64,000 nucleotides of DNA, taken from the NCBI GenBank assembly GCA_028713125.1, contig JAQTOU010000003.1, positions 467,286-531,285 on the forward strand, read 5' to 3'. Position 1 is the stretch's first letter; each line of letters starts with the position of its first letter. Shown here in pieces: positions 21,082-63,762 of this stretch. The notes beneath the pieces are model-generated. The model made no database searches and was not told the DNA's origin. It worked only from the letters and a program-made list of their open reading frames with translations. The stretch comes from Elusimicrobiales bacterium (GTDB lineage Bacteria > Elusimicrobiota > Elusimicrobia > Elusimicrobiales > UBA9959). Position numbers and translations under genes: made by a program.

Positions 21082-21152
21082 ACCCGGGCGCGCGGCAGCC
21101 GGGAGACGGCAGCCGCGCAGTTTTCACTAAATGGTATATTGTGAGGATTAAT

Positions 21153-30972: not shown

Positions 30973-30976
30973 AATG

Positions 30977-31010: not shown

Positions 31011-31093
31011 TATATGCCCCGAACTTATTATACAGAAATTGGGCGTGAGCCGCATCTCGAATGGGAACTCCGGTGAGCGGCGCTTGCGTCCAA

Positions 31094-31109
31094 TGGCATA
31101 AAAAATGTT
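31094..31109 (+). promoter_or_regulatory. sigma-54-type -24/-12 promoter (degenerate -12: TGT)
   Basis: TGGCATAAAAAATGTT followed by ctatta. GG-N10 spacing is exact but -12 is GT, not GC. It lies about 45 nt upstream of 31154. Confidence 0.5.
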
Positions 31110-31153
31110 CTATTATAGAATAACAGGTTCTAAAGTGCGGACAGGAGATCGTT

Positions 31154-50400: not shown

Positions 50401-50490
50401 GGTATATTATATGAATTTGCCGCGCCGGGCCGCTCGGGGGAAATGGAAAAAGCCGCGCCAGGCACGGCTTTTTTCGCGGGCCGGCGGTCT

Positions 50491-51009
50491 TTACGGCCGG
50501 GAGAGATGAACTTTAAGAGCTTCGGTGGCCTCGTCCAGGAGCCCGGTTTTTTCGCTGCTAGCGGCGGCCTCGGCCGTTTTGAGGGCGGCGCCGGTTTCCC
50601 GCACGATAAAGTCCGCGTCTTCCTGGCCTATACCGTCGACCACCATGCTCTTTATACGTCTTTCTATCTTCGCGCGGTCGGCCGGATATTTGTCCGAGGA
50701 AACTTTAACGAAGACGGTCCGCGTGCCGCCGCGTTCCACTTTTATGGCCCAGACGGGGTCGTTCTCGGGGGTGCAGGCCCGCTCCAGCGAAACTCTTTCG
50801 CTTACGCCGCCGACAGAGATGGAGAGAAGGAAAGGCTTGCAGATTTTCGGAGCGGCCGCGGCCGGGGCCGGGGTTTGCGGCACGGCGCTGACTTCGGAAA
50901 GTTTCAGCGGCTCCGAAGACTTATTAAAATCAAAAGCCGCCGCGCCGCGCGGGGCTGAAAAAAGAGCGACCGCCAATATCAGAACGGGGAATAAAGCCGG
51001 TTTTCTCAT
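50491..51009 (-). CDS. secreted hypothetical protein
   Basis: 172 aa. Signal MRKPALFPVLILAVALFSAPRGAAA. I recognise no family. Confidence 0.5.
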   Translation of the reverse strand: MRKPALFPVLILAVALFSAPRGAAAFDFNKSSEPLKLSEVSAVPQTPAPAAAAPKICKPFLLSISVGGVSERVSLERACTPENDPVWAIKVERGGTRTVFVKVSSDKYPADRAKIERRIKSMVVDGIGQEDADFIVRETGAALKTAEAAASSEKTGLLDEATEALKVHLSRP

Positions 51010-51129
51010 TAACCCTCCTGTGAACTTATTATATTGTAGCCGGGGAGGAACATTCTTGCCACGGCCAGAAGACCCAGGAGTGGCAGGTTTTTAGGTCCCG
51101 CGGAGGTAGGACCGCGGCCTCGCGCGTGG

Positions 51130-51738
51130 TTATTTGGCCGTAGGCGGGGCGGCTTTAAAGACAGGGCCGGGGAGCCAGAAAAGCTTCCCGGCTACCGGGT
51201 TGAGCAGAAGCGCGAAAGCTATCCACAGCGCCACAAGGCCGAGCAAAATGGTCAGCGCGGCTATAGGCATGACCAGCGCGGTCGTGCCCGTGATGCCGGC
51301 TATTATCTTGAAAACGTACATCAGGTCTATCACCAGCAGGAAGAAGAAAAGCAGGCCGCTGAAGAAGCCGAAGCCGTAGGTCATGGCCGCGAAGATGAGC
51401 AGAAAGCAGATGTCGGCCGAGAGCATGACCGCGTGGTCCGGCATCACGCCGCCGGCTATGGAGGTAAGGACCCACCAGTTCATCACCCAGTTGAAGGCGA
51501 AGGCCGTGAACAGCGTGCCGCCGTAAAGATTTTTATTCGCGAGGCTCATCACCCCGGCCAGGAACTGGCAGCCGCCGCCGAACAGGAGGCAGAGCATGGC
51601 CGCGGTCCTGAAGGCCGCTGGCGTAAGGGTAAGCCCCAGCGCTATGGGCGCCAGGGCGGCGCAGCCGATAGCCAGGCCGATCAGGCCCATAGGCGTCGGT
51701 TCCGCGAAAATCATCGGTGCGTTCTGCGCTTCGCTCAT
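51130..51738 (-). CDS. satP: GPR1/FUN34/YaaH family acetate/succinate channel
   Basis: 202 aa, 6 TM. The N-terminal FAEPTPMGLIGLA matches the NPAPLGL-type family signature. Confidence 0.75.
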   Translation of the reverse strand: MSEAQNAPMIFAEPTPMGLIGLAIGCAALAPIALGLTLTPAAFRTAAMLCLLFGGGCQFLAGVMSLANKNLYGGTLFTAFAFNWVMNWWVLTSIAGGVMPDHAVMLSADICFLLIFAAMTYGFGFFSGLLFFFLLVIDLMYVFKIIAGITGTTALVMPIAALTILLGLVALWIAFALLLNPVAGKLFWLPGPVFKAAPPTAK

Positions 51739-51831
51739 TGTGTCCTCCGGGAAACCCCTGATAATGTAAAATTATATCACGGTACGCGCCCGGAATGTTT
51801 AACGCGGATTCACTTTTATGGAGAAAACTAA

Positions 51832-52764
51832 ATGAAGGACGAAATAGTGAGCACCGCCGCCCTGCGGCGGGAATACGGCGACGTGGTGGCCGTCAAGGAT
51901 ATCGATCTTTCCGTGCCGCGGGGCGCCGTGATGGCGCTGGTGGGTCCCAACGGCGCGGGCAAGAGCACGCTGCTCAAGATGCTCTCCGCCGTGCTCGAGC
52001 CTACGCGAGGAACCGCCGTGGTGAACGGGGTGGATATAAACGAGAACCCGCGCGGCGTGCACGCCTCGGTGGGCTTCCTTCCCGATTTTTTCGGTCTTTA
52101 CGAGGAGATAACCGTGGGCGAGTACCTGGAGTACTTCGCCAGGGCTTACGCCGTTCCGCCCGGCCGCCGGGAAAGCGTCATCGCCCGGACGCTCGCCGAC
52201 GTGGACCTGGCCGGCAAGGCCGGCGCGCGGGTGCAGGCGCTCTCGCGCGGGATGCGCCAGCGCCTGGCCATAGGCCGCACGCTGCTGCACGAGCCGCCGC
52301 TGCTGCTGCTCGACGAGCCGGCTTCGGGCCTCGACCCCGAGTCTAGGCACGACCTCCAGAAACTGTTTACGCGGATGGCGCAGGGCGGCAAAACACTTAT
52401 CGTTTCTTCGCATATCCTTACCGAGCTTGAGGACTACTGTACCCACGTCGCCATACTGCGCGAGGGGAACCTCGTGGCCTGCGGCAGCCTGGCCGAGGTG
52501 CGGGCTTCGGTAGGCAGGAAGCGCCGGGTGCGCGTCAGGGCCGCCGGCGGCACGGAAGGAGCGCTGGCGCTGCTGCGCGCCGCCGGGATGGAAAGCCCGG
52601 CCGCGGAGGGCGGAAGCGTATTCTTTAATTTTTCAGGGACCGAAGAGGAACTTTCCGGAACCCTTAAGCGCCTTCTCGACGGCGGGGTGAAGGTGCTTCA
52701 TTTCGGCGAGGAAGGTGGCGGCATCCAGGAAACGTACCTCGCCTCTTTGGAGAAGAAAATATGA
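51832..52764 (+). CDS. ABC transporter ATP-binding protein
   Basis: 310 aa. GPNGAGKST, LSRGMRQRLAIGRT, LLLDEPASGLD. Confidence 0.9.
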   Translation: MKDEIVSTAALRREYGDVVAVKDIDLSVPRGAVMALVGPNGAGKSTLLKMLSAVLEPTRGTAVVNGVDINENPRGVHASVGFLPDFFGLYEEITVGEYLEYFARAYAVPPGRRESVIARTLADVDLAGKAGARVQALSRGMRQRLAIGRTLLHEPPLLLLDEPASGLDPESRHDLQKLFTRMAQGGKTLIVSSHILTELEDYCTHVAILREGNLVACGSLAEVRASVGRKRRVRVRAAGGTEGALALLRAAGMESPAAEGGSVFFNFSGTEEELSGTLKRLLDGGVKVLHFGEEGGGIQETYLASLEKKI

Positions 52765-54101
52765 TTCAGCTTACCGGTCTTTTTCCCGAGATCTTCCGCT
52801 ACCGCGCGCAGGAAACGGGCAGGTTCAAGCTCCTGTCCAGCCTGGCCGCGGCCCTGGTCCTTTGCGCCGCCACCGGCTATTCGGTCGCCAAGACCACCGC
52901 TTCCTGGGGGAGCTACCTCTCCGCCATAACCTTCATCCAGTTCAATATGCTGGTCTTTTACGGCGTGGTCTGTACGGCCAGGTGCGTCACGCAGGAAAGG
53001 GCCGAGCGGACCTGGGACTTCCAGCGCCTGACCCCGCTTTCTTCGTTCAAGATAGCGGCCGGTAAATTCCTGGGGGCCCCGGTCTTCCCCTGGTTCCTTT
53101 TCGCCTGCCTGCTGCCCGCCGCGCTGCTCCCGCTTGTTTTTTCGCCGGGCGTTTACGGCGACTTCCTGAGCCGGTACGCGCTGGGCCTCTCGGTCGCGCT
53201 GCTGTCGATGGCCGTCGGGCTGCTGGCCTCCGCCTACGACGAGACCGGCGGCAGCGGCATGGGGCATCTTTCCGGGCCGCTGATCGGCCTGGCCGGGATC
53301 AGCACGCTGAACTCTTCTTTCAGGTACGCGGATTCGCTGGGCCGGCCTTTCCCTATGCTGATCACTTTTTACGGCTTCCAGCTGGGGCCTGTCTCCGGCG
53401 TGCTTTTCCTCACGGCGACTTTCCTTGGTTTCGGGGCCTGGGCCTTTCTCGGCGCCAGGTACCGCATAGGCCGCGACCTCCTCGAGCGCCGCCGCGCCTG
53501 GCGCCTGCCGGCTTTCCTGCTTTTCCTGGCCTGGTATATAACGGGCTTCGAGTATACGGCCCCGCGGACCGGCGCGCTGCCGCTCACGGCGCTGGTCCTG
53601 CCGGGCCTGGCCGTCTACATCGCCTCCTTCCTCTCCAGCGAGCGGAGCGAATACTGGCGGCGCTGGCTGGCAGGGGACAGCCCGGCGCGCCGCCTGGACG
53701 ACAGCCCGGCCTGGCTCAAGGGTTCCGTGCCCCTGCTGTGCATAGCCGCCGTCCTATACTTCATTTACGGCGTAGGCGCGCCGGAAGCAGTAGCGGCGCA
53801 GGGCCGTCTCTACCTGATCCTGCCGCTTTTCCTGCTGAGGGACCTGATGTTCCTGCAGTGGTGCCGGTTCTCGGCGAGCCGCAGGCCGGAAATGATGGCG
53901 CTGGCTTACCTTGCGCTGGTCTACGCCCTGCCGGCGATAATACTCTGGCCGACGAGAATGACGGATTTCCTCCCGCTCTTCGTCCCTTACGCGAGCGAAA
54001 GCCTGGGTTTCGCGGCGAACCTGGCCGGGCCCATCGCCCAGGTATTGATAATGGTTTATTTCCTGCGCGTGAAAATAAAGGCGGCGCTGACCGAAAAGTA
54101 A
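52761..54101 (+). CDS. polytopic membrane protein coupled to the ABC ATPase (putative permease)
   Basis: 446 aa. ATGA overlap with the ATPase gene. About 10 or more hydrophobic helices. No motif recognised. Confidence 0.55.
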   Translation: MIQLTGLFPEIFRYRAQETGRFKLLSSLAAALVLCAATGYSVAKTTASWGSYLSAITFIQFNMLVFYGVVCTARCVTQERAERTWDFQRLTPLSSFKIAAGKFLGAPVFPWFLFACLLPAALLPLVFSPGVYGDFLSRYALGLSVALLSMAVGLLASAYDETGGSGMGHLSGPLIGLAGISTLNSSFRYADSLGRPFPMLITFYGFQLGPVSGVLFLTATFLGFGAWAFLGARYRIGRDLLERRRAWRLPAFLLFLAWYITGFEYTAPRTGALPLTALVLPGLAVYIASFLSSERSEYWRRWLAGDSPARRLDDSPAWLKGSVPLLCIAAVLYFIYGVGAPEAVAAQGRLYLILPLFLLRDLMFLQWCRFSASRRPEMMALAYLALVYALPAIILWPTRMTDFLPLFVPYASESLGFAANLAGPIAQVLIMVYFLRVKIKAALTEK

Positions 54102-54159
54102 ACTCCGGGCGCGCGAAGGCGACAGGAGAAGGTTCGCGGAATTTATGATCCGGGCGGGG

Positions 54160-56073
54160 TTAAGGGACAGCTTCGAAAGGCGGAACAGAAAGAGCGGCCT
54201 GGGCTGCTGCCAGTACCTGCGACGCTTCGCGCCGGCGCCCCTGGCGCTCAAGAACTTCTACCAGCATTTTCGTGCACCGCGCGTAATTGGGCTCCAGGGC
54301 TAGCGCGCGGCGGAGCAGCCGCTCTCCCTCCGCGGCGTCGTTCCCGTGCAGGAGCCTGACGGAAGCGAGCGCGGCAAGGGCCGAGGTGAAATCGGGAACT
54401 TCGGCGAGCGAGAGGCGCAGCTTCGCCGTCGCGGCGGGCCAGTCGGCATTCCGGAGGTCTTTCAGCGCCTCCGCATAAAAACCTGCAGCTTTGTTCCAGC
54501 CGGCGGGAAATTCCACGCCGTAGATCTCCGTTCTTTCGAGCGGATCCTCATAAAGCTTCCTGAAGCGGAGCGGGTGATGCCTGATCCAGCCCCTTTCCAT
54601 GGCCTGCTGCCAGGCCTGGTTCGTGCGGTAGGGGCCTTGCGTGGAAAGGACCGTTCCGGCGGTCACAAGGGCATGCGTGATCTGAAAGCGCGAGAGCTCC
54701 AAAAGAAAAGCGTCCGCATCAGGCGCGCCGAACATGCCGTGGCCTGACCGGCCGGTGTAGAGCTCGATGACCGGGCCCCTGCCCAGGAAACGGCTCTCAG
54801 GCGGCGTTTCGCGGCGGATCCACTCCAGCGTCCGGGTGTAAAGCCTGGTTTCGGGGGGCCGCTGCGGTGAATAGGTTTCCCGCACCAGCAGCCCGGCGCG
54901 TACAAGAAATCCGAGGGCCACGCAAAGCAGGAGCGCCCGCGCGGCCGGGGGCCGGGACCTTCCCGCGGCATAGACCCCGCTTACCAGGAACAAAAAAAAG
55001 AACGGCAGTATCGGCAGCGCGTAGCGCTCGGAATAAACGGTCCAAAGCGACATCACCAGTCCCTGCCCCGTAATAAGCAGCCCTGCCGACAGGGCGATGG
55101 ACCGCCCGGCCGGCGGTTTATCCAAAAGAGCGGAAAGCCCTTTCGCGCAAAAATAAATTACTCCGGCGATCAGCGCGGCCCCGAAGAGGTCCGGCAAGGG
55201 ACCTCGCGGCCAGGGGCAGGCGAGTCCGTAGACGAGGATAAAAGAATGAAGCAGGCCGTAGCCGCGCTCCCAAAGGGACTGCCGCGCCAGGGACGCCAGG
55301 CCCTGCAGCAGGTAGTGGAGATAATCGGAAGGGACGTCGTTTTTCAGCAGGGCCGAGAAGCCGACCGCCAGGCAGGGCAGCCAGACAAGAAGGGTTATCA
55401 AGCGCAGCGCTTTCCAGGCCCTGGCTGAAAATATAGCGGCCGTGAGCACGGCGGCCAGGAGGATCCCGATGGGCTTCGTGCAAACGGCCCAGGCTGTCGC
55501 GGCGCAAAGCAGCGCGTAAGCCCATCCGCCTTTTTCTCCTTGCAGGACCATGCGGAGCCCCAGCAGGGCGAATACAAAAAGAAAAGCGAGGAAGGGGTCG
55601 GCCATCACGATGCCGGAGCTTAAAAGGAAAAGCGGCTGAAGCGCGTAAAGGAGCGCGGCCCAGCGCCGCTCTTCGGCCGGCAGCCAATCCGCTAAAAGCT
55701 TCCAGAAGCCGTACACGGTAAGGACCGAGACGGCCGCCATCGCCCAGGGCAGCAGGGACCAGTGCGGCCTGAAGACGGCGACGAAAGGCGCCAGGAAAAG
55801 CGGGTAGCCGGGCATGAAATGGGAGAAGAGCGCGCCCAGGCCGGAACCGGAAAGGTTGCGCAGGGCGTCCCACAGCCGCTGGGCGAGAAGCACGAAGGAG
55901 GCGTCGTCGTTGAAAAACCCTACTTCATAGCGCGGGTGGAAGAGGACCGCGCCGGCCGCGGCGACGAGCAGGAGGAGGCGGAGGAAAGCGCGGTCGGAAA
56001 GCGGCGAAGCCGCGGCCCCGGGAGAGGCCCCAAGCCGGGCGATTTTTTTCAGGAGAGTTCCGGGATCTGTCAT
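54160..56073 (-). CDS. polytopic glycosyltransferase-like membrane protein (GT39/ArnT-like) with a C-terminal TPR region
   Basis: 637 aa. About 12 N-terminal TM helices with an early DDAS motif (FFNDDASFVLLAQRL). The C-terminus is TPR-like (LRRALALEPNYARCTKMLVEVLERQG). Confidence 0.55.
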   Translation of the reverse strand: MTDPGTLLKKIARLGASPGAAASPLSDRAFLRLLLLVAAAGAVLFHPRYEVGFFNDDASFVLLAQRLWDALRNLSGSGLGALFSHFMPGYPLFLAPFVAVFRPHWSLLPWAMAAVSVLTVYGFWKLLADWLPAEERRWAALLYALQPLFLLSSGIVMADPFLAFLFVFALLGLRMVLQGEKGGWAYALLCAATAWAVCTKPIGILLAAVLTAAIFSARAWKALRLITLLVWLPCLAVGFSALLKNDVPSDYLHYLLQGLASLARQSLWERGYGLLHSFILVYGLACPWPRGPLPDLFGAALIAGVIYFCAKGLSALLDKPPAGRSIALSAGLLITGQGLVMSLWTVYSERYALPILPFFFLFLVSGVYAAGRSRPPAARALLLCVALGFLVRAGLLVRETYSPQRPPETRLYTRTLEWIRRETPPESRFLGRGPVIELYTGRSGHGMFGAPDADAFLLELSRFQITHALVTAGTVLSTQGPYRTNQAWQQAMERGWIRHHPLRFRKLYEDPLERTEIYGVEFPAGWNKAAGFYAEALKDLRNADWPAATAKLRLSLAEVPDFTSALAALASVRLLHGNDAAEGERLLRRALALEPNYARCTKMLVEVLERQGRRREASQVLAAAQAALSVPPFEAVP

Positions 56074-56119
56074 GATTTATTTGCCGCTTCCGGTACGGCC
56101 GAGGTGGTCCGGCGCCGCC

Positions 56120-56581
56120 CTAAAAGCCGGCGTATTTACGCAGGCTTACGAGCCGGGAATAATAGTAAGGGTTAGTGACCGAGTCGATGTGCACCCCGTT
56201 GGTGAAAGAGGCGTGCACGAAAAAGCCTTTCCCCACGTAGATCCCGACATGGTCCACTTTGGCCGTGCCCGGGTTTTTCATGGCGAAGAAGATCATGTCG
56301 CCCGGCAGCACGCCGGAGGGGGACAGGCGCAGGGTCTGCGCGAACTGGTCCCTGGCCACGCGCGGCAGGCCGAGGCCGGCCTTGCCGTAGACCAGCTTCA
56401 CGAAGGCGGAGCAGTCCATGCCGGTCTGCGGGTGCATGCCGCCCCAGAGGTAGGGCGTGTTAAGGAAGGTCATGGTCTCTTTCACCACCTCGCCCCGGGC
56501 GTCGGCGATGGATTTGGCCCCGGCCGCGGAAAACGGAAGGACGGCCAAAAGGCTGAAAAAGAGGATTTTTTTCAGGCGCAT
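56120..56581 (-). CDS. NlpC/P60 (C40) family peptidoglycan hydrolase
   Basis: 153 aa with a signal peptide. Catalytic blocks are GMDCSAFVKLVY and DHVGIYVGKGFFVHAS. Confidence 0.85.
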   Translation of the reverse strand: MRLKKILFFSLLAVLPFSAAGAKSIADARGEVVKETMTFLNTPYLWGGMHPQTGMDCSAFVKLVYGKAGLGLPRVARDQFAQTLRLSPSGVLPGDMIFFAMKNPGTAKVDHVGIYVGKGFFVHASFTNGVHIDSVTNPYYYSRLVSLRKYAGF

Positions 56582-56621
56582 GATTTATGTATTATATAAC
56601 ATAGTTTCCAAAAATCCGAAG

Positions 56622-57338
56622 ATGAAAACCGCTATATTCGCTATAAGTCTTATTCTGCTCGGCACGACCCTGCCGCGCGCGGAATCCCTGCCCAACCTGC
56701 ACAACCAGGCCGCGTGGAGCGAAAAAGACAAGAAAGATTTTTTAGGCTTCCTGAAGTCCAACCAGGCCGTTCCCGCCGGGCAGGTTAAGCAGATCGCGGC
56801 CGGGGACGACGCGCGCCGGGCTCCCTCGAAAGCGCGCTACGCCTCGCTCGCCCTCGTTTCGGACACGATGATCCTGGACCTCGGCGGCGGCAGGACCAAA
56901 ACTGAAACCACGACTTTCGGCCCCAAGCTGCTCGCCGGCGGGCATATCTTCTCCTGGGTGCGCTATTACGCCGGGCTGAAATATAACCGGGTGGGCCAGG
57001 AGAAGCTCGACGGCACGAGGGCGCACCTTTCGCATATAGAGGTCCCGCTGGGCCTGGAGCTCGCGCTCATCCCCCTGGGCACGCCCCATACCAGGTATTT
57101 CCTGCTGCGCGGCGGCGTCTCGGAACATTATTTTTACGGCTCCGCTAAAAAGTCTGATTTCAAGAACCCCCTGCTCGGCTGGCGCCCCGCCTGGAATCTG
57201 GGCCTGGGCTACGAATGGCAGTTCGATAATTCAAACTGGCGCTTCCACTCCCTGGCCGAAGGCTACAGGACCTTCTCCGCGAGCAGCACCCGCTTCTACG
57301 GCCTGGGCCTTACCGCCGGCTTCGTCTACACTTTTTAA
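56622..57338 (+). CDS. outer-membrane beta-barrel protein (putative)
   Basis: I prefer ATG 56622 (signal MKTAIFAISLILLGTTLPRAES). Alternating hydrophobic strands. The C-terminal ...GLTAGFVYTF ends in Phe, as in OMPs. Confidence 0.6.
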   Translation: MKTAIFAISLILLGTTLPRAESLPNLHNQAAWSEKDKKDFLGFLKSNQAVPAGQVKQIAAGDDARRAPSKARYASLALVSDTMILDLGGGRTKTETTTFGPKLLAGGHIFSWVRYYAGLKYNRVGQEKLDGTRAHLSHIEVPLGLELALIPLGTPHTRYFLLRGGVSEHYFYGSAKKSDFKNPLLGWRPAWNLGLGYEWQFDNSNWRFHSLAEGYRTFSASSTRFYGLGLTAGFVYTF

Positions 57339-57355
57339 TTCTTTCCCCCAAAAAT

Positions 57356-57391
57356 AAGAACACCCGGATCTTCTCCGGGTGTTCTTTTTTT
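57356..57391. terminator. bidirectional intrinsic terminator
   Basis: aagaacacccgga-tcttc-tccgggtgttctt flanked by A-run and T-run, between convergent genes. Confidence 0.75.
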
Positions 57392-57419
57392 CGCTCCCTG
57401 ATCCTCGATCTTCTATTTC

Positions 57420-58871
57420 CTAATGTATCCCGTGCATCCATTTGCGCAGCTTGGGGGTCAGAAGCAGCAGCAGTATCGCCGCGCCTATGCCGGTGGCCGT
57501 GGGGATCATGTAGAAGTTCACGTGGTTGATAGTGTCGTAGTTCCCGGCGAGCCGCCCGCCGATGAGCCCGGCCGCCACGCTGGACAGGAAGTAAACGCCC
57601 ATCATCAGCGAGCCGAACTGCAGCGGGGCCAGCTTGGTCACCAGCGACAGGCCCACCGGGGAGAGGCACAGCTCGCCGAGGGTATGGAAGAAGTAAGCGC
57701 CGACCAGCCACAGAACGCTGACGGGGCCGCTCTGCTGGTACGCCGCGGCGGCCGCTATCATCACCACGAAGCCGATAGCAAGCAGGCCCAGCGCGATAGC
57801 GAACTTGACCGGGCTGGACGGCTCTCTCTTGGTCTCGGCCAGGTTTACCCACATGCCGGAGAAGAAAGGCGCGAGCACCACGATGAAGAACGGGTTCAGC
57901 GACTGGAACCAGCCGGAGGGGACCAGGAAGCTCCAGCCGAACAGGGACAGGTTCCTGTTCGTCTCCCTTTCGGCGAACAGCGTCAGCGAGCTGCCGGCCT
58001 GCTCGAAGGCCGTCCAGAAGAAGATAGCGAAGAACACCATGATGAAGATCACGGCTATGCGCTGTTTCTCTATATGGGTCAGTTCGGACTTCACGGGCTT
58101 GGAGGCGTAGGAGTAGGCCATGCCTATCAGTACGAATAAAGCGGCCGACCAGTAGAGCCAGCGCGGAACCCTGCTGAAGATCTCGAAACCGTTGAATTCC
58201 ATCGCGGTAAGTATCAGGAAGGAGACCATCATCGTGACCAGCGTCACGGGGACCCAGTAATTGGTCTGCGGGTCCGCCGGTTTCATCATCTTGTCGCCAA
58301 GCAGCGCCTTCTGGCCCCAAAGGTACATCACCAGGCCCAGGACCATGCCGACGCCGGCCGCGCCGAAGCCCCAGTGCCAGCCTACCATTTCGCCGAGCGT
58401 GCTGCAGACCAGCGGAGAGAACATCGCGCCCAGGTTGATGCCCATGTAGAAAATAGTGAAGCCGCCGTCGCGGCGCGGGTCGTTCTCTTCGTAGAGCGAG
58501 CCTACCACGGTGGAGATGTTCGGCTTGAAGAAACCGTTGCCCATGATCAGCAGGATCATCGCGCCGAAGAAGAAAGGCATGGACGGCAGGGCCATTGCGA
58601 AATGGCCGAGCGCCATCAGGATGCCGCCCACCAAAATGGCTTTGCGCTGGCCCAGATAGCGGTCGGCAATGTAGCCGCCCAGAAGCGGGGTCAGGTAGAC
58701 CAGGCCGGTATACCAGCCGTAGACATGGCTGGCCTTCTCGGTGCTGAACTGCAGCGACTTTACCATGTAAAGCACGAGGAGCGCCCTCATGCCGTAGTAG
58801 GAGAAGCGCTCCCACATTTCAACGAAGAAGAGGAGGAAGAGGCCTTTAGGCTGGTTATGGTGAATGCTCAT
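57420..58871 (-). CDS. POT/PTR2 family proton-dependent oligopeptide transporter
   Basis: 483 aa. The FFVEMWERFSYYGMRALLVLYM signature (ExxERFxYY). About 14 TM. Confidence 0.9.
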   Translation of the reverse strand: MSIHHNQPKGLFLLFFVEMWERFSYYGMRALLVLYMVKSLQFSTEKASHVYGWYTGLVYLTPLLGGYIADRYLGQRKAILVGGILMALGHFAMALPSMPFFFGAMILLIMGNGFFKPNISTVVGSLYEENDPRRDGGFTIFYMGINLGAMFSPLVCSTLGEMVGWHWGFGAAGVGMVLGLVMYLWGQKALLGDKMMKPADPQTNYWVPVTLVTMMVSFLILTAMEFNGFEIFSRVPRWLYWSAALFVLIGMAYSYASKPVKSELTHIEKQRIAVIFIMVFFAIFFWTAFEQAGSSLTLFAERETNRNLSLFGWSFLVPSGWFQSLNPFFIVVLAPFFSGMWVNLAETKREPSSPVKFAIALGLLAIGFVVMIAAAAAYQQSGPVSVLWLVGAYFFHTLGELCLSPVGLSLVTKLAPLQFGSLMMGVYFLSSVAAGLIGGRLAGNYDTINHVNFYMIPTATGIGAAILLLLLTPKLRKWMHGIH

Positions 58872-58987
58872 GTTGGCTCCTTGCTTGTGCCGGAAGTTAT
58901 AATGAATTATATATAAAAAGGTGGAGCTGATTTCTTGGTATAATTTAACAGAAATTAAACGACGGGTCTTCCCAAAGGACTACCAGC

Positions 58988-59728
58988 ATGGACTATAACA
59001 CAATTTTCGGGATAGTGGGCTTCATCGCGCTTATACTTATCGGCGTGTTCACCGGGCAATTAGACGGTTCCCTCCTTAACCTCCACGGCGTCTTCGTCGT
59101 TCTGGGCGGCAGCTTCGTGGCGATACTGATCAATACGCCTTTCGTCCACACTTACAAGGCCGTGACCGAGCTGCGTTTCCTGATGTTCAACGACGAGATG
59201 AACGAAATAAGGCGCACGGTACCGGTGATGGTGGACCTGGCCGGGCAGTGCCGCTCGAAGGGCCTGTCGGCCCTGAAGGACGCTGACCCTAAGCATGCCA
59301 ACGGTTTCCTGACGCGCGTATCGGCTGCGGCGCTGGAATACAATGATTCCGCTTTTGTGAAGCGCGTTATTACCCAGGAGATAAACCAGGTGGCGGACGA
59401 GATGAACGAAGTGGCCAACGTGTACAGGACCTTCGGCCTCCTCTCCCCCATGTTCGGCCTGTTGGGGACGCTTATAGGTATCATCGGCGTGCTCAAGCAG
59501 CTGTCCGACCCGGAGACCGTCGGCCCCGCCATGGGCGTCGCCATCACTTCCGCTTTCTACGGCATAATCATCGCCAACATGATCTGCGTGCCGATAGCCG
59601 GCAAGATCCGCTCCAGGATCTGGATGCAGACCAAGCTTAAATCCATGATACTCGAGGGGATACTCGAGATCATGCAGGGCAGCGTCCCGATAGTGGTGGA
59701 GCGGCGGATGCAGTCTTACTTCGGGTAG
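58988..59728 (+). CDS. motA: MotA/PomA family stator proton-channel protein
   Basis: 246 aa. 2 TM, a cytoplasmic loop, then 2 TM. GPAMGVAITSAFYGIIIANMICVPIAGKI closely resembles the PomA/MotA TM3-TM4 block (GPAMAVALLTTLYG...). Confidence 0.8.
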   Translation: MDYNTIFGIVGFIALILIGVFTGQLDGSLLNLHGVFVVLGGSFVAILINTPFVHTYKAVTELRFLMFNDEMNEIRRTVPVMVDLAGQCRSKGLSALKDADPKHANGFLTRVSAAALEYNDSAFVKRVITQEINQVADEMNEVANVYRTFGLLSPMFGLLGTLIGIIGVLKQLSDPETVGPAMGVAITSAFYGIIIANMICVPIAGKIRSRIWMQTKLKSMILEGILEIMQGSVPIVVERRMQSYFG

Positions 59729-59745
59729 TCACGGGGCGGTACGCT

Positions 59746-60444
59746 ATGCCTGAAGATATTTACAAAAACAGACGCGAAGAGCTGGAAAACCAGCTGAACA
59801 AGGGCGCTCTCTGGGCCGTGACTTACGGCGACCTGATGAGCTACCTGATGATCTTTTTCCTGATGATGTTCTCTTTCTCCATAGCCAAGACCGACAAATC
59901 TAAGAGCCGCAAATACGAGGAATCCCTCGCGAACATCCAGAAATCCTTCGGCGGCAAGGTGGACAAGAAGCGCATGGAAAGGGCCCAGGCGCAGGAAACC
60001 GAGTCCAAGATGGAGAACAACCTTAAGGAGTCGATGGCGGCGGGCGGGATCTCTAACCTGGTGCAGATACAGTCAAACGCCCGCATGGTGAAACTGGTGC
60101 TTACCGAAGGCGTACTTTTTTCTTCCGGGGCTTCCGACCTGAAGGAGCCCGCGAAAAAAGTGCTGGCCCCTATCGCCGCCGAGCTTAAAAAACTTCCCAA
60201 CGACGTGATAATCGAAGGGCATACCGACAATGTGCCGATAAAGCACGGAAGATATTCTTCCAACTGGGAGCTTTCCATGGCCAGGGCTTACTCCGTGCTG
60301 CAGTATATGGCCACGCAGGGTATTCAGTCCAACCACCTGGCCGGCATAGGCTACGGGGACACCAGGCCCGTCGGAGATAATGCCAGGCCCGAGGGCCGGG
60401 CCAAAAACAGGCGCATAGAGATCTCCCTGATGAAAACCGACTAG
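59746..60444 (+). CDS. motB: MotB family stator protein (OmpA-like C-terminus)
   Basis: 232 aa. WAVTYGDLMSYLMIFFLMMF carries the conserved channel Asp. The OmpA-like blocks are GHTDNVP, NWELSMARA and NRRIEISL. Confidence 0.85.
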   Translation: MPEDIYKNRREELENQLNKGALWAVTYGDLMSYLMIFFLMMFSFSIAKTDKSKSRKYEESLANIQKSFGGKVDKKRMERAQAQETESKMENNLKESMAAGGISNLVQIQSNARMVKLVLTEGVLFSSGASDLKEPAKKVLAPIAAELKKLPNDVIIEGHTDNVPIKHGRYSSNWELSMARAYSVLQYMATQGIQSNHLAGIGYGDTRPVGDNARPEGRAKNRRIEISLMKTD

Positions 60445-60578
60445 GTTTCCGGGTATTTTTGTTTTCCGGCTCACCCCTCCACTTTAAAGCGCTCCCCGGG
60501 CAATATTCCTGTAATTTTTGCGCAACACCTTTTATACACGCCTATAATATAATATGGCTGTAGGAAGGACGCCGCTTT

Positions 60579-61505
60579 ATGGATTATTTGAAATATGTGA
60601 TGATAGTCGGGCTGGCCTCTCTTACGGTCGCGGCCATCTGCTGCACCGCCCTGTGGGTGATGGCGCCCCTTATTCTTTCACGCGCCCGGCCGGAGGAAGG
60701 GGAGCACGGAGAAACCGCGGCGGAACCGCGCCCTCCTGCCGAACCGGAGCTGCCCGGAGTTCGCTTTAATTTCACGGCCCAACAGGCGCCCGCGCTGGCG
60801 GGTATCCTTAAAAAGGAAAGCCCTGAAGACACCGCCGTAGTCGTTTCGCGCCTGCCGGCCGAAGCGGGCCGCGCCCTGCTGGACGCCCTTACCACCGAAA
60901 GGCGGGCGAAGGTCCTGCAGTGCCTGGCTTCACCCCGGACGGTGGACCTGGAGCTGATGCGCGGCATGAAGGTGGAGCTGGAGAACAGGCTGTACGGAGT
61001 GGTGGGCGGCGCAGCGCAGGCCGCGCCCTTTATAAAGCTCCTGGCTTATGAAGAGAGGAAAGAACTGCTGGAAACTATCTATTCTGAGAGCCCGGCCCGC
61101 GGCGCCGAGCTGCGGGCCCTCTTCATCTTCGACGAGGATCTGCCGGGGATCCCGGATAGGGACCTGGGCGCTTTAGCGGCCGCTGTGCCGGCTGAAACTA
61201 TGGGGACTTACCTGCCCGCGCTGCCGGAAGCCCTGAAGGCCAGGCTGAAGGAACAATATTCCGGGAAGGAAGGGCTGGCGCTGCAAAAGGTCGCTCTTGC
61301 CGCTCCCCAGGGTCCCGTTGAAAAAAGAGCCGCTCTGGACAGTTTTATCGCGCTGGTGGAAGATATGGCGGAGAAGGGCCTTATAGTGAGGCCGAAACCG
61401 CAGGCTAAGCAAAAGCCCGCGGCTGTACCGGCCCCGGATAAAGCTTCAGCGCCGGCGGTCAAAGCCCCCGCACCCGCGGCCAAGCCGAAGAGGGAGTGGG
61501 GCTGA
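60579..61505 (+). CDS. membrane-anchored FliG-like protein (middle and C-terminal FliG-type domains only)
   Basis: 308 aa. N-terminal TM helix VMIVGLASLTVAAICCTALWVMAPLIL. LKKESPEDTAVVVSRLPAEAGRALLDALTTERRAKVLQCLA resembles the FliG middle domain (EHPQTIA..L..L....AA.VL..LP...R.EV..RIA). FIFDEDLPGIPDRDLGALAAAV...GPVEKRAALDSFIALVEDMAEKGLI resembles the FliG C-terminal domain (F.FEDL..LDD..IQ.LL...GPVR..DVE.AQ..IV...R.L...GEI). Recognition is by eye. Confidence 0.55.
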   Translation: MDYLKYVMIVGLASLTVAAICCTALWVMAPLILSRARPEEGEHGETAAEPRPPAEPELPGVRFNFTAQQAPALAGILKKESPEDTAVVVSRLPAEAGRALLDALTTERRAKVLQCLASPRTVDLELMRGMKVELENRLYGVVGGAAQAAPFIKLLAYEERKELLETIYSESPARGAELRALFIFDEDLPGIPDRDLGALAAAVPAETMGTYLPALPEALKARLKEQYSGKEGLALQKVALAAPQGPVEKRAALDSFIALVEDMAEKGLIVRPKPQAKQKPAAVPAPDKASAPAVKAPAPAAKPKREWG

Positions 61506-61506
61506 T

Positions 61507-62643
61507 ATGGCCGAACCGGAAAGCAGCGAATCTATATTCGCCAAATATAAAAAAGGCGCTCCCTCCGCGGCCGCGCCGTTCCGCGCGCAGCCGGCCGTCC
61601 AGCTGCCGCCTCCTCCGCTGCCTCCGCGCCCGCCCCTGCCTCCGCCGCCTCCTCCTCGGCCTGCGGAGCCCCCTCAGCCGCAACCCGACCCGGGAGTCAC
61701 CGATTACCTTAAGAAAAAGGTAGAGGAGCTCGAAAAAAAACTTTTCGAGACGCAGGAGAAAGCTTTGTCTTTTTCAATGGAGCAGAGGAACAAGGAAGAA
61801 CTGCAGAGGCGGAGCCTGGGGCAGGTGGAAGAAATGTTCAATACCCTGCGCGCCAGCCAGCGGGCCGAGGAGGCGGATAAAAGATACACCGAGCGGCTGG
61901 AGAAGCTGGAGCAGCAGGCGGCTGAACTTAAGGCCGGGCTGGACGGCTACGGCGCCGAGGGCTCGGCGGAGCGCGTCGCCAAACTCGAGGCCGCCTTCGA
62001 CGGGCTGCGCGAGGCCGACCAGCGCGCCGGGGAGGAACTCAGGTCTTCAGAGGTCTCCGCGGCAAAGCTTACCACCAGGCTCGAGCTGGCCGAAGCCCGT
62101 ATCGGTGAACTGCGGGACAGGATAGCGGCCGGCGCCGAGGCGCGGCTGCCGGAGATCTACTCCAAAATGGGGGCCGCCGAGGCCTGGAACGCTTCGCAAG
62201 CCGCCGAGATGCGCGAACTGCGAGAAAAAGTGGCCAGCCTTGACTCCGATCAGGCCGGTGTCAGCCTTAAACTGGTCGAGCCCTTCCGTAAGATTTATGA
62301 GACCGACGGCCGCGTTTCAGCTCTGGAAGCTAAAGTTCCGGAACTTTGGCGGCTCCGGGAAGATCTTTCAACGCTCAAAGACGCCGTCCTGGGCCGTGAT
62401 ATAGTTTCCGCGGAGGACCTGCGCGGAGCCATGCGCAAAATGGCGGAGATAGAATCCTCTTTCTCGGACTTTTCCGCCAAGCTTGCCGCCCAGGAAAAAC
62501 GGAGCCTGGAGGGCGTTTCCGCCCTCGGAACCCTCGAGGGCAGGTTCGACTATTTCAAGACTCTTTTCGACAACCTCAGGAGCGTAGTAGATAGGCTGAT
62601 GATAAAAAATAGCGGAAAATCAGGTCCTCCTTGCCAGTCATAA
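61507..62643 (+). CDS. proline-rich, coiled-coil protein
   Basis: 378 aa, starting 1 nt after the previous stop. It has the polyproline stretch QLPPPPLPPRPPLPPPPPPRPAEPPQPQP, then about 300 aa of E/K/L/A-rich heptad-like sequence. Confidence 0.65.
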   Translation: MAEPESSESIFAKYKKGAPSAAAPFRAQPAVQLPPPPLPPRPPLPPPPPPRPAEPPQPQPDPGVTDYLKKKVEELEKKLFETQEKALSFSMEQRNKEELQRRSLGQVEEMFNTLRASQRAEEADKRYTERLEKLEQQAAELKAGLDGYGAEGSAERVAKLEAAFDGLREADQRAGEELRSSEVSAAKLTTRLELAEARIGELRDRIAAGAEARLPEIYSKMGAAEAWNASQAAEMRELREKVASLDSDQAGVSLKLVEPFRKIYETDGRVSALEAKVPELWRLREDLSTLKDAVLGRDIVSAEDLRGAMRKMAEIESSFSDFSAKLAAQEKRSLEGVSALGTLEGRFDYFKTLFDNLRSVVDRLMIKNSGKSGPPCQS

Positions 62644-62808: not shown

Positions 62809-63762
62809 TCAAGGTTCCAGTTCCGCAAGTATATCCTTTTGCGAAGCGGCGCAGCGGAAGCCTATGTCGTCGTTGGCCTTGCCGTAGCTGGCGCGATTAG
62901 TGCTAGCCATTTCGTCGGCATCCGAAGCCCATGAGCCGCCTCGTATCACATGCTCCTTACCGGTTTCAGGCCCCTTAGGATTCCTTCTCGGGCTGGCCTG
63001 ATAATAATTTCTGCCGTAGAAGTCGGACACCCATTCCCAGACATTCCCATTCATATCATACATGCCAAAAGCGTTGGGGCTCTTGCAAGCGGTCTTATGC
63101 GGCAGCTCCCCGGAATTGGCCGCAAACCAGGCGAAATTCCCGGCGTCAGCGGTTGAATCCCTAAAATTATATTTAACCGAAGTCCCGCCGGTCGCCGCCG
63201 CTTCCCACTCGGCTTCGGTAGGCAGGCGGCGTTTTTTGTAGGCGCAATAGGCCGCCGCGTCGGACCAGAATATCCCGAAGACCGGGCAGGAGGGGCAGTC
63301 CTTTATCAGGCCTTCCAGCCGCCGGTAATATTTTTCTTTGCCGGTCTCCAGATTGAACTTTCCGCTCGGCTTGGCCCACTCCGGATAGTTGCCGCCGGTG
63401 GTTTTTGCGAAGGTCAGGTAATCCGCAAGGGTTACCTCGGTCTTGTCCATGTAGAAAGCGTCCAGGGACACAGCGTGCATGGGGAGCTCGTCCGGTTCTC
63501 CCTTCCCTTTTTCCGCGCCTATCCTGTATTCACCTGCTGGCACAAGCGCCATGCCAGCGGTTTTTTTAGCCAATTCCCCGGCGTGCCTTTCCTTGAAGTA
63601 CTTCGTAGCGCTTCCCAGACAGACGCCGCAGGCGGGGTCGGCGGTCCCGCTGCGAATGTAGCTGATCAGCTCCGAGTCTCCGCGTGAAGCGCGCTGGGCG
63701 AAGCAGTCAGCTGCGCCGGTCAGCAAGAGCCAGAGAGAGAGCAATGTAAAAGTGGTTTTCAT
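62809..63762 (-). CDS. formylglycine-generating enzyme (FGE-sulfatase/SUMF1) family protein, secreted
   Basis: 317 aa with a signal peptide. LPTEAEWEAAATGG, NAFGMYDMNGNVWEWVSD, RGGSWAS, GFRCA. Confidence 0.8.
   Translation of the reverse strand: MKTTFTLLSLWLLLTGAADCFAQRASRGDSELISYIRSGTADPACGVCLGSATKYFKERHAGELAKKTAGMALVPAGEYRIGAEKGKGEPDELPMHAVSLDAFYMDKTEVTLADYLTFAKTTGGNYPEWAKPSGKFNLETGKEKYYRRLEGLIKDCPSCPVFGIFWSDAAAYCAYKKRRLPTEAEWEAAATGGTSVKYNFRDSTADAGNFAWFAANSGELPHKTACKSPNAFGMYDMNGNVWEWVSDFYGRNYYQASPRRNPKGPETGKEHVIRGGSWASDADEMASTNRASYGKANDDIGFRCAASQKDILAELEP

What the first reader, a model, noticed from the sequence alone, without database searches (positions are those of the whole stretch)
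58988..62643. Orphan MotA-MotB stator operon followed by a membrane-anchored FliG-like protein and a proline-rich coiled-coil protein
motA and motB look canonical: a PomA-like TM3/TM4 block, the channel Asp in YGDLMS, and an OmpA-like peptidoglycan-binding end. No other flagellar gene is nearby. The flanks are a POT transporter and an FGE-fold gene on the other strand. The next gene encodes a protein whose soluble part resembles the middle and C-terminal (stator-interacting) domains of the rotor protein FliG. A single TM helix replaces the FliF-binding N-domain. A 378-aa protein with a polyproline stretch and a long coiled coil starts 1 nt later. Inference: this could be a stator unit coupled to a membrane-tethered FliG-like partner, that is, a proton-motive-force-driven device that is not a flagellar rotor. 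I do not recognise it as a described system.
Basis: partly seen in the sequence, partly recalled or inferred. Interest (0 to 1): 0.75.

Follow-up and report, generated by a model that had tools for sequence, protein, structure and literature searches.

The report
Non-flagellar stator with membrane-tethered FliG partner
An Elusimicrobia genome places a flagellar-type ion motor (MotA/MotB) next to a membrane-anchored, cut-down copy of the rotor protein FliG and a coiled-coil partner; this is a rearranged version of an undescribed motor-like gene set found throughout this phylum, most of whose members are reported to lack flagellar structural genes.

Summary
motA and motB encode a full-length PomA/MotA-type stator. 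Gene 3 (G') is an N-terminal TM helix plus FliG middle and C-terminal domains. Gene 4 (X') is a Pro-rich coiled-coil protein that starts 1 nt later. The 64 kb holds no flagellar gene.

Across 80 Elusimicrobiota species, close MotA/MotB orthologs always sit with a long FliG-like protein (G). G is a FliF RBM3 ring domain, a TM helix and FliG_MC in one chain. A coiled-coil protein (X) homologous to X' comes with it, usually with a histidine kinase and a PorV-like outer-membrane protein. In some lineages the kinase is fused to G.

G'-X' is a truncated paralog pair of G-X. In about 16 relatives it lies next to the POT gene without motAB. In the window's lineage a motAB cassette sits just upstream of G''s own conserved promoter-like element, at a recombination boundary. 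An independent assembly shows the same order, and a second lineage shows the POT|motA-motB part.

The window, however, holds a derived, ring-less variant. I found no description beyond one remark that the role of motAB and fliG in aflagellate Elusimicrobiota is unclear. Function remains inferred.

The parts
58872..58987 (.). Spacer between the POT gene and motA. Its POT-proximal half is homologous to the ancestral POT|G' spacer. Similarity to close relatives ends at about 58880. An extended -10-like TGGTATAAT lies at 58936-58944, 44 nt before the motA ATG.
   Evidence: Alignment A5; blastn identity profile; sequence.
58988..59728 (+). motA: a 4-TM PomA/MotA-type stator A subunit, 246 aa. R89 corresponds to E. 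coli R90. K97 corresponds to E. coli E98, with the charge reversed across the whole family. P154 and P202 are the channel prolines.
   Evidence: It is 75% identical to the MotA of the Elusimicrobia A-G-X-B operons.
59746..60444 (+). motB: the stator B subunit, with the TM Asp D29 (codon 59830-59832), a plug region and an OmpA-like peptidoglycan-binding domain.
   Evidence: It is 81% identical to L018 MotB and 85% to L033 MotB.
60496..60578 (+). Conserved upstream, promoter-like element of G'. It is retained from the ancestral POT|G' spacer and includes a Shine-Dalgarno-like GGAGGA/GGAAGG.
   Evidence: Alignment A5 across 8 relatives. No terminator is predicted between motB and G'.
60579..61505 (+). 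G': a membrane-tethered FliG-like protein.
- TM helix, residues 7-30 (60597-60668).
- Disordered linker.
- FliG_M, residues 67-139 (60777-60995).
- FliG_C, residues 145-265 (61011-61373).
- Torque-helix equivalent, residues 230-241 (61266-61301).
- Pro/Ala-rich tail ending in the conserved KPKRxWG.
   Evidence: dN/dS is 0.12-0.19.
61507..62643 (+). X': a cytoplasmic partner protein. It has a conserved N-terminal (D/E)SIF motif (residues 8-11), a Pro-rich spacer (residues 34-62) and a long coiled coil. It is homologous to the X proteins of the full modules.

Best explanation
The locus is a lineage-specific, rearranged member of a stator-rotor-like gene module that is conserved across Elusimicrobiota and is not part of a flagellum.

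The full module encodes:
- MotA and MotB.
- G, a single chain made of a FliF-type RBM3 ring domain, a TM helix, and the FliG middle and C-terminal domains.
- X, a coiled-coil protein whose gene directly follows G (start within a few nt of the G stop, or overlapping it).
- Usually a sensor-less histidine kinase (fused to G in some lineages) and a PorV-like/TPR outer-membrane protein.

The window's G'-X' pair is an old, selectively maintained paralog of G-X. In it G has been cut back to its second TM helix plus FliG_MC, so it has no ring-building domain. In the window's lineage a motAB cassette, orthologous to that of the full modules, has been placed directly upstream of G'-X'.

Inferred mechanism: MotB anchors a MotA5B2 unit to peptidoglycan. 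Ion flow through D29 (probably H+) turns the MotA ring. The cytoplasmic loop of MotA engages the FliG_C-like helix of membrane-tethered G'. G' is bound to the X' coiled-coil scaffold. The motion or strain is used for signalling or an envelope-surface process, not for turning a filament.

Shown here: homology, folds, synteny, purifying selection and the insertion history. Inferred: assembly, the MotA-G' contact, G'-X' binding and the output.
For: Identity of the parts.

Phylum-wide linkage:
- Three MotA orthologs sit in motA-G-X-motB operons.
- A scan of species genomes gave 80 loci, all Elusimicrobiota, with the orders V-H-A-G-X-B, V-H-G-X-A-B, G-A-B and others.

G is a FliF RBM3 domain plus FliG:
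- Pfam YscJ_FliF_C, FliG_M and FliG_C all match.
- Foldseek matches FliG at E=4e-11 and FliF S-ring/RBM3 entries at about E=3e-6, probability 1.0.

Paralogy:
- G' aligns with G from TM2 onward at 28% identity, E=1e-19.
- X' shares with X the SIF motif, the Pro-rich spacer and the first coiled-coil block.

Orthology of the stator genes: MotA 75% and MotB 81-85% identical to those of the full modules.

Selection: dN/dS is 0.07 for MotA and 0.12-0.19 for G'.

The arrangement is real and partly shared:
- An independent assembly is 100% identical over 6 kb and shows the full order.
- A second lineage (MotA 86% identical) also has POT|motA-motB; its 1-kb contig ends inside motB, so what follows is unseen.

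Lineage-specific change: MotA of these two lineages shares E86G, E129T and K230Q at otherwise 90%-or-more conserved positions.

Kinase link: single-chain HisK-G fusions exist.

No flagellar genes in the window. The literature notes aflagellate Elusimicrobiota with motAB and fliG.
Against: - About 16 related G'-X' loci have no motAB beside them, so G'-X' does not need an adjacent stator.
- G' keeps its own conserved upstream element, and a 134-nt gap separates it from motB.
- The canonical electrostatic pairs are not conserved. MotA has K/R at the E98-equivalent position (120/120). G' has K/R at the D288-equivalent position and no acidic pair there.
- G' lacks any ring-building domain, so it cannot form a rotor ring the way FliF-FliG does.
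- The window's X' is only 30% identical to its relatives' X'.
- No V or module-type H gene lies in the window.
- The rest of the genome, including any long G or flagellar genes, was not visible.
- No experiment exists for any member.
Confidence: 0.62

Rival explanations
1. The adjacency has no specific coupling. The motAB cassette landed next to G'-X' through a rearrangement. MotAB works with a long G rotor encoded elsewhere in the genome. G'-X' does its own job, for example as an alternative subunit, regulator, brake or decoy of that machine, just as in relatives where it is unlinked.
For: - Relatives carry G'-X' without motAB, and at least two of them have a separate full module in the same assembly: MNUR01 (L033 plus L004) and CAZUQT01 (L051 plus L010).
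- G' retains its own upstream element.
- There is a recombination boundary at about 58880.
Against: - In this phylum motAB is linked to a G/X-type pair in every gene order seen, so landing beside the paralogous pair by chance is unlikely.
- The POT|motA-motB part of the arrangement is also seen in a second lineage.
- MotA shows lineage-specific changes of charged cytoplasmic residues.
- No terminator is predicted between motB and G'.
Confidence: 0.25
2. This is the ordinary flagellar stator locus of a flagellated bacterium, and G' and X' are flagellar accessory proteins.
For: - MotA and MotB are full-length flagellar-type stator proteins (PomA/MotC/MotD-like).
- A few Elusimicrobiota are reported to have complete flagellar gene sets.
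Against: - No flagellar gene in the 64 kb, nor within 10 kb either side of three full-module loci.
- All NCBIfam flagellar equivalog scores are far below their cut-offs.
- The E98-equivalent charge is reversed in the whole family.
- FliG_N and the FliM-binding EHPQR motif are absent.
- The family is typical of free-living Elusimicrobiota said to lack flagellar structural genes.
Confidence: 0.05
3. These are decaying relics of an ancestral flagellum with no current function.
For: G' is truncated. Its torque-helix charges and its EHPQR motif are degenerate.
Against: - Purifying selection is strong: dN/dS 0.07-0.19.
- Reading frames are intact in dozens of species.
- The long G forms 153 clusters at 50% identity with E of 1e-30 or better.
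- Conserved new fusions exist (HisK-G, G-TPR).
Confidence: 0.03
4. This is a Zorya-like anti-phage system built on a MotAB-type motor.
For: MotB hits the ZorB models (E=4e-25), as any MotB would.
Against: - MotA has no ZorA hit, and at 246 aa it lacks the long ZorA tail.
- There is no ZorC, ZorD or ZorE equivalent.
- G' and X' have no real PADLOC hit.
- The locus is chromosomal and syntenic across the phylum rather than in a defence island.
Confidence: 0.02

Closest known systems
Flagellar rotor-stator core (MotA5B2/PomA5B2 acting on FliG carried on the FliF MS-ring)
   Same: - Same protein families and folds: a 4-TM MotA with a large cytoplasmic loop, and MotB with the TM Asp, a plug and an OmpA-like domain.
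- FliG_M and FliG_C domains are present, and in the long form a FliF RBM3 domain.
- The R90-equivalent of MotA and the R281-equivalent of FliG keep their positive charge.
   Different: - No export apparatus, rod, hook, filament, FliM or FliN nearby.
- FliG_N is absent. FliG_MC is either fused covalently to a mini-FliF (G) or only tethered by one TM helix (G').
- The EHPQR motif is lost.
- The E98-equivalent of MotA is K/R, and the D288/D289 acidic pair of FliG is absent.
- A dedicated coiled-coil partner, a histidine kinase and a PorV-like outer-membrane protein accompany it.
Engineered FliF-FliG fusion proteins of Salmonella and Vibrio (e.g. PDB 8z4d)
   Same: The long form G is a natural single-chain FliF(RBM3)-TM-FliG. 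The G' family profile hits the Vibrio fusion chain.
   Different: The natural Elusimicrobiota fusion lacks RBM1, RBM2 and FliG_N. The window's G' lacks the whole periplasmic part.
Other 5:2 ion-driven motors put to non-flagellar use (GldLM/PorLM of the T9SS, AglRQS, ExbBD, TolQR, ZorAB)
   Same: The concept is the same: a MotAB-type ion motor powers something other than a flagellum. A PorV-like outer-membrane protein and giant surface proteins lie next to the full modules.
   Different: Those systems use ExbB/TolQ/GldL-type A subunits and no FliG. This one uses a true flagellar-type MotA together with FliG-like and FliF-like partners.
MgtE N-terminal domain (a FliG-related fold)
   Same: A weak MgtE_N Pfam hit (E=8e-4), and MgtE entries appear low in the Foldseek list.
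   Different: There are no CBS or MgtE channel domains. FliG matches are far stronger, at E=6e-19 against no reported match for MgtE by profile, and the top 13 structural hits are all FliG.

Membership tests
Flagellar stator A subunit (MotA/PomA) | Four TM helices with a large TM2-TM3 cytoplasmic domain, alignable end to end with solved MotA/PomA | tested here: met
   PomA 8brd E=4e-32 over residues 1-245; also 9luc, 6ysl, 6ysf and 8ucs.
Flagellar stator A subunit (MotA/PomA) | Conserved channel prolines (E. coli P173 and P222) | tested here: met
   P154 and P202, each 120/120 in the family.
Flagellar stator A subunit (MotA/PomA) | Rotor-facing charged pair R90/E98 (PomA R88/E96) | tested here: not met
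   R89 is kept (119/120). The E98-equivalent is K97, and the family has K in 113 and R in 7 of 120.
Flagellar stator A subunit (MotA/PomA) | Score above the NCBIfam equivalog cut-off | tested here: not met
   The best model, PRK09109, scores 146.6 bits against a cut-off of 237.
Flagellar stator A subunit (MotA/PomA) | Belongs to a genome with a flagellar regulon | not testable with these tools
   Only 64 kb of a 541-kb contig is visible. That part holds no flagellar gene.
MotB/PomB | Single TM helix with the essential Asp, a plug segment and a C-terminal OmpA-like peptidoglycan-binding domain | tested here: met
   D29 in YGDLMS; MotB_plug E=1e-12; OmpA E=2e-19; NWELSMARA motif. NCBIfam scores are below their cut-offs.
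FliG (flagellar rotor/switch protein) | FliG_M and FliG_C domains | tested here: met
   FliG_M scores 34 bits against a cut-off of 25. FliG_C scores 19.6 against 23.3 for the single sequence. The family profile hits 1lkv at E=6e-19 over both domains. Foldseek's top 13 hits are all FliG, and single domains superpose at TM 0.70-0.86.
FliG (flagellar rotor/switch protein) | N-terminal FliF-binding domain (FliG_N) | tested here: not met
   Absent. Residues 1-36 form a TM helix and residues 37-62 are disordered.
FliG (flagellar rotor/switch protein) | EHPQR motif of FliG_M (FliM binding) | tested here: not met
   The sequence is KESPED in G' and GEDPAN in G. Only the E and the P are kept.
FliG (flagellar rotor/switch protein) | Torque-helix charges (E. 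coli R281, D288, D289) | tested here: not met
   The R281-equivalent is K230, so the positive charge is conserved. The D288-equivalent is K/R237 and the D289-equivalent is V/A. In the long G these two positions are Q and T, preceded by a conserved E.
FliG (flagellar rotor/switch protein) | Score above the NCBIfam fliG equivalog cut-off | tested here: not met
   TIGR00207 scores 15 bits against a cut-off of 226.7.
Elusimicrobiota stator / FliF-FliG-fusion module (defined here; I found no published description) | MotA and MotB orthologous to those of the A-G-X-B operons | tested here: met
   75% and 81-85% identity.
Elusimicrobiota stator / FliF-FliG-fusion module (defined here; I found no published description) | FliG-like protein carrying the periplasmic FliF RBM3 domain | tested here: not met
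   The window's G' starts at the homolog of TM2 and has no periplasmic domain.
Elusimicrobiota stator / FliF-FliG-fusion module (defined here; I found no published description) | Coiled-coil partner gene directly after G, with the N-terminal SIF motif and a Pro-rich spacer | tested here: met
   X' has SESIF at residues 7-11, a Pro-rich stretch at 34-62 and the X-type block at 65-135. Its gene starts 1 nt after the G' stop.
Elusimicrobiota stator / FliF-FliG-fusion module (defined here; I found no published description) | Adjacent 312-aa histidine kinase and PorV-like/TPR protein | tested here: not met
   Neither is in the window by tblastn; only generic histidine-kinase hits appear.
Zorya anti-phage system | ZorA with a long cytoplasmic tail, plus ZorC/ZorD (or ZorE and others) | tested here: not met
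   No ZorA, ZorC or ZorD hit. Only generic ZorB-MotB similarity.

The most novel reading that the evidence does not exclude
Elusimicrobiota have a stand-alone, non-flagellar rotary or torque-generating machine. A minimal MS-ring-like rotor, made of FliF RBM3 fused to FliG, is driven by a true MotAB stator. It is wired to a histidine kinase, sometimes in the same polypeptide, and to a PorV-like outer-membrane protein. The machine would act either as a mechanochemical sensor or actuator, or as the engine of a new surface-motility or secretion apparatus. The window would show a further step, in which the stator is re-paired with a ring-less, merely tethered FliG (G') and its coiled-coil partner. 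If so, this would be a living example of 'half a motor' with its own function, which bears directly on how the flagellar rotor-stator pair originated or can be re-used.
Probability: 0.4. Interest if true: 0.9.

Novelty: new variant of a known kind. Interest (0 to 1): 0.78.

Why it matters
FliG and flagellar-type MotAB are textbook flagellum-specific partners. Here both are conserved and under purifying selection in a phylum where most free-living members are reported to lack flagellar structural genes. The architectures are new: a FliF RBM3-FliG single chain, a HisK-rotor fusion, and a TM-tethered FliG.

[quoted passage not shown]' (raised in PMC12199754) concretely testable. It offers a minimal rotor-stator pair for structural and biophysical work. 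It may also explain the 'enigmatic' motAB and fliG genes noted in magnetotactic and other aflagellate Elusimicrobiota. The window adds a natural experiment: the same stator placed next to a ring-less FliG paralog.

Tried and rejected
- Zorya or another defence system: PADLOC gave only generic ZorB-MotB similarity. Rejected.
- MgtE-type N domain instead of FliG: FliG matches are far stronger by profile and by structure. Rejected.
- Assembly artefact: an independent Logan assembly is 100% identical over 6 kb. Rejected.
- Horizontal transfer of motAB from outside the phylum, suggested by the lower GC of motAB (0.55-0.57 against 0.60-0.63): more than 300 close homologs were found, and every named one is Elusimicrobia. 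Rejected. What the data show instead is recombination within the phylum.
- Looking for the canonical V-H...ileS locus inside the window: not there.
- tblastn of the window's X' against relatives' loci found nothing at E<1e-5. A direct alignment showed only 30% identity. This led to the finding that X' resembles X.
- Single-linkage clustering of ORFs across the 80 loci to find more linked genes. Antisense ORFs in GC-rich DNA merged families, so it was abandoned in favour of the tblastn classification.
- One Pfam call failed on wrong coordinates and was repeated.
- Five literature searches and a 2026 gliding review gave no description of the module.
- Simple charge complementarity between MotA and G or G' gave no clean compensatory pattern.

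Full report
**1. The observation.**

- MotA (246 aa) matches Pfam MotA_ExbB (E=4e-21). It aligns from first to last residue with solved stator A subunits (PomA 8brd, E=4e-32; MotA 9luc, 6ysl, 6ysf, 8ucs). Both channel prolines are present (P154 and P202, each 120/120 in its family).
- MotB (232 aa) has MotB_plug and OmpA domains, the essential Asp (D29 in YGDLMS) and the peptidoglycan-binding motif NWELSMARA.
- Gene 3, here called G', has one hydrophobic helix (residues 7-30).
  - FliG_M scores above Pfam's cut-off. FliG_C scores just under it but covers the full profile.
  - A profile of its 13-member family hits T. maritima FliG_MC at E=6e-19 across both domains. It also hits the Aquifex, Helicobacter and Salmonella FliG chains and the Vibrio FliF-FliG fusion.
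  - An AlphaFold model (98-sequence alignment, pLDDT 88) retrieves FliG as its 13 best PDB matches (probability 1.0). Single domains superpose at TM 0.70-0.86, including the FliG_C chain solved bound to MotAB (8ucs_H).
- Gene 4, X', starts 1 nt after the G' stop. It has a Pro-rich segment (residues 34-62) and only coiled-coil-type similarities.
- The flanks are a POT transporter and an FGE-fold gene.
- Pfam annotation of about 45 further ORFs found no flagellar, T3SS, chemotaxis or pilus gene in the 64 kb.

**2. What the comparison with other genomes shows.**

G' has few relatives: 13 clusters at 47-76% identity, and the one named source is Elusimicrobia.

- In seven of these relatives, and in eight further metagenomic loci, G' and X' are adjacent. 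They lie next to, or within about 4 kb of, the divergent POT gene, and no motAB is present.
- MotA has more than 300 close homologs, nearly all 246 aa, and every named one is Elusimicrobia.
- The context of three of them was the key result. The operon reads motA, then a 513-544-aa protein with YscJ_FliF_C, FliG_M and FliG_C, then a 438-624-aa unannotated protein, then motB. Upstream lie a PorV-like/TPR protein (V) and a 312-aa HisKA/HATPase_c kinase (H).
- A scan of one genome per species with a MotA profile returned 80 loci, all from Elusimicrobiota MAGs. I classified them by tblastn:
  - about 40 are V-H-A-G-X-B;
  - about 11 are V-H-G-X-A-B;
  - others are (V-)G-A-B, or A-B followed by H, G, H and V on the opposite strand;
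  - a few short contigs show only A-B.

So a flagellar-type stator, a membrane-embedded FliG-like protein and a coiled-coil protein are linked throughout the phylum, in several permutations. That pattern marks a functional module rather than inherited gene order.

**3. The long form G.**

G has the following parts:

- an N-terminal hydrophobic segment;
- a periplasmic alpha/beta domain of about 165 aa with a low-confidence insert (residues 74-117);
- a TM helix;
- a Gly-rich linker;
- FliG_M and FliG_C.

Its model matches FliG (E=4e-11; FliG_C at rmsd 1.0 A). Independently, the periplasmic part matches some 17 FliF MS-ring/RBM3 entries at about E=3e-6 and probability 1.0, plus SpoIIIAG. G is therefore a natural mini-FliF(RBM3)-FliG_MC fusion.

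An exhaustive profile search found 153 clusters (at 50% identity) with E of 1e-30 or better.

- Some are 790-850 aa because the kinase H is fused to the N-terminus of G. L069 has a single 839-aa ORF of this kind, and so do P0258 and P0265. JGI labels P0265 'signal transduction histidine kinase/flagellar motor switch protein FliG'.
- Others carry C-terminal TPRs.
- Named members are Elusimicrobiota, apart from one Saganbacteria MAG.
- A CheY-like receiver gene (L033) or an OmpR-type regulator gene (L069) sits beside some modules.

**4. How the window's genes relate to the module.**

- The window's MotA and MotB are orthologs of the module's: 75% and 81% identical to L018, and MotB is 85% identical to L033.
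- G' aligns with G only from the second TM helix onward (28% identity, E=1e-19). Even the TM helix is homologous (FKYGIL... against LKYVMI...). G' is thus G without its periplasmic ring domain.
- X' shares three features with X: the N-terminal (D/E)SIF motif, the Pro-rich spacer and the first coiled-coil block.
- Genomes that carry G'-X' also carry full modules. MNUR01 has G-X-A-B (L033) plus POT|G'-X' (L004). CAZUQT01 has V-H-A-G-X-B (L051) plus G'-X' (L010).
- G' is under purifying selection (dN/dS 0.12-0.19), as is MotA (0.07).

**5. History of the window's arrangement.**

- Aligning the intergenic regions shows that the window's POT-motA spacer keeps the POT-proximal half of the ancestral POT|G' spacer. 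The motB-G' spacer keeps the strongly conserved G'-proximal 85-95 nt. motAB is therefore a clean insertion just upstream of G''s own promoter-like element.
- motA brings its own extended -10-like TGGTATAAT. No terminator is predicted between motB and G'.
- In an NJ tree the window's G' is nested inside the G' clade, in 100 of 100 bootstraps. The juxtaposition is therefore derived.
- The window is 92-93% identical in nucleotides to L007 from 50001 up to exactly 58880. After that point motAB is absent from L007, the G' region is only 72% identical, and nothing aligns beyond 61559. POT has dS 0.16 and G' has dS about 1.0. Position 58880 is thus a recombination boundary, and the A-B-G'-X' block came from a more distant Elusimicrobia lineage.
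- The arrangement is real. A Logan assembly is identical over 6 kb.
- It is not unique in its first part. The closest MotA (86% identity, from another sample) also has the POT start codon upstream and motB 7 nt downstream. That 1-kb contig ends inside motB, so whether G'-X' follow there is unknown.
- MotA of these two lineages shares seven changes at positions that are 90% or more conserved in the other 118 family members. They include E86G and E129T in the cytoplasmic domain and K230Q.
- The window's X' is only about 30% identical to its relatives' X'. Its best non-self matches are X proteins of full modules.

**6. Interface residues.**

- MotA keeps the R90-equivalent (R89, 119/120). At the E98-equivalent it has K or R in 120 of 120 sequences, followed by D/E/N.
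- In FliG_C the R281-equivalent stays positive (K) in both G and G'. The D288/D289 pair is Q-T in G (preceded by a conserved E) and K/R-V/A in G'.
- The K264-equivalent and the EHPQR motif are lost.
- The fold is FliG, but the canonical electrostatic code is not conserved. I could not derive a clean compensatory pattern.
- PomA's Na+-site residue T186 corresponds to an invariant Ala here. T186A abolishes Na+ binding in PomA (PMC6677748). H+ is therefore the more likely ion, but this is untested.

**7. Mechanism.**

Shown here: the identities, folds, linkage, selection and insertion history above.

Inferred from established knowledge of 5:2 stators:

- MotB anchors a MotA5B2 unit to peptidoglycan.
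- Ion flow through D29 turns the MotA ring.
- The cytoplasmic domain of MotA pushes on the FliG_C-like domain.

In the full module G could form an RBM3 ring and so act as a rotor with no axle. The fused or adjacent kinase and the PorV-like protein suggest that the output is signalling and/or an envelope-surface process.

In the window the partner next to the stator is G'. It cannot build such a ring. It is either an alternative subunit or regulator of a G ring encoded elsewhere, or a tethered lever that passes stator motion to the X' scaffold. I put 0.62 on specific MotAB-G'-X' coupling. I put 0.25 on adjacency with no specific coupling.

**8. Comparison with known systems, and novelty.**

The closest known system is the flagellar rotor-stator core. 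The parts belong to the MotA, MotB, FliG and FliF superfamilies. They fail several defining tests for the flagellar proteins themselves:

- the NCBIfam equivalog cut-offs;
- E98, and the D288/D289 pair;
- the EHPQR motif;
- FliG_N.

Zorya and MgtE were rejected. A flagellar relic is contradicted by purifying selection and by the new conserved fusions.

Five literature searches found one relevant remark. [quoted passage not shown] The 2025 MotAB evolution paper and a 2026 gliding review do not mention the module.

I rate this a new variant of a known kind. There is a substantial chance (about 0.4) that the module is a categorically new machine.

**9. Limits.**

- Only 64 kb of a 541-kb contig could be read. 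Whether this genome has a long G, the V and H genes or any flagellar genes is unknown.
- No multimer prediction and no expression data were available.
- All functional statements are inferences.

Noticed in passing
L069 6353-8872; P0258, P0265, P0267-P0271, P0278: Single-chain fusions of a histidine kinase (HisKA plus HATPase_c) to the FliF(RBM3)-FliG protein, 790-850 aa long. The topology is consistent: kinase in the cytoplasm, then TM1, RBM3 in the periplasm, TM2, and FliG_MC back in the cytoplasm. Why a kinase is attached to a putative rotor subunit is unexplained.
   Followed up: partly
window 58880 (boundary); window 50001-58880 against 60496-61559: The left flank is 92-93% identical in nucleotides to relative L007. 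The G' region is 72% identical, and the rest of the right side does not align. POT has dS 0.16 and G' has dS about 1.0. This is a sharp recombination or rearrangement breakpoint at the POT start.
   Followed up: yes
window 58988-59728 (MotA residues 54, 55, 86, 129, 215, 230, 233): The window and its closest relative L110 share seven substitutions at positions that are 90% or more conserved in the other 118 family members. Three of them remove charges in cytoplasmic regions (E86G, E129T, K230Q). This may be adaptation to a different partner.
   Followed up: partly
window 61507-62643: The window's X' is only about 30% identical to the X' of relatives whose G' is 61-76% identical. Its residues 55-150 resemble the X proteins of full modules more closely (L046 36%, E=2e-15; L033 35%). 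It may be a chimera or the product of gene conversion.
   Followed up: partly
L032 7070-9932; L036 10001-12857: Two species have motA-X-motB with no FliG-like gene detected between or beside them.
   Followed up: no
P0325, P0389 (640-672 aa): A variant of the FliF-FliG fusion carries C-terminal TPR repeats. One full-length family member (P0305) is attributed to a Candidatus Saganbacteria MAG, the only named source outside Elusimicrobiota.
   Followed up: no
L018 104-7096; L019 1-4662; L020 1-7029: Giant or multiple secreted-looking proteins (Gly_rich_2, fn3, CARDB, PTL_trimer) lie directly upstream of the PorV-like/TPR gene of the full modules. This hints at a link to the cell surface.
   Followed up: no
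window 15323-15393 (+): A 2'-dG-II purine riboswitch aptamer (Rfam RF03165, 85.6 bits against a gathering score of 60). It lies upstream of a radical-SAM ORF (15754-16629), an unannotated 487-aa ORF and a histidine kinase.
   Followed up: no
window 25446-28535: A radical SAM/SPASM enzyme followed by an ABC-2 transporter pair (ATPase plus permease). The layout resembles a peptide-maturation and export cassette.
   Followed up: no
window 29623-32209: A sigma-54 activator with a receiver domain (NtrC/FlbD-like, minus strand), divergent from a 351-aa ORF that matches only the sigma-54 DNA-binding domain. The latter is short for an RpoN.
   Followed up: no
window 21141-21956 and 62809-63762: There are two FGE-sulfatase-fold genes in the window. 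The second one flanks the locus studied here.
   Followed up: no
L033 659-1054 and 5644-6348; L069 11439-12134: Module-adjacent genes. L033 has a CheY-like single receiver domain between the kinase and G, and a 234-aa coiled-coil protein after motB. L069 has an OmpR-type regulator after motB.
   Followed up: partly
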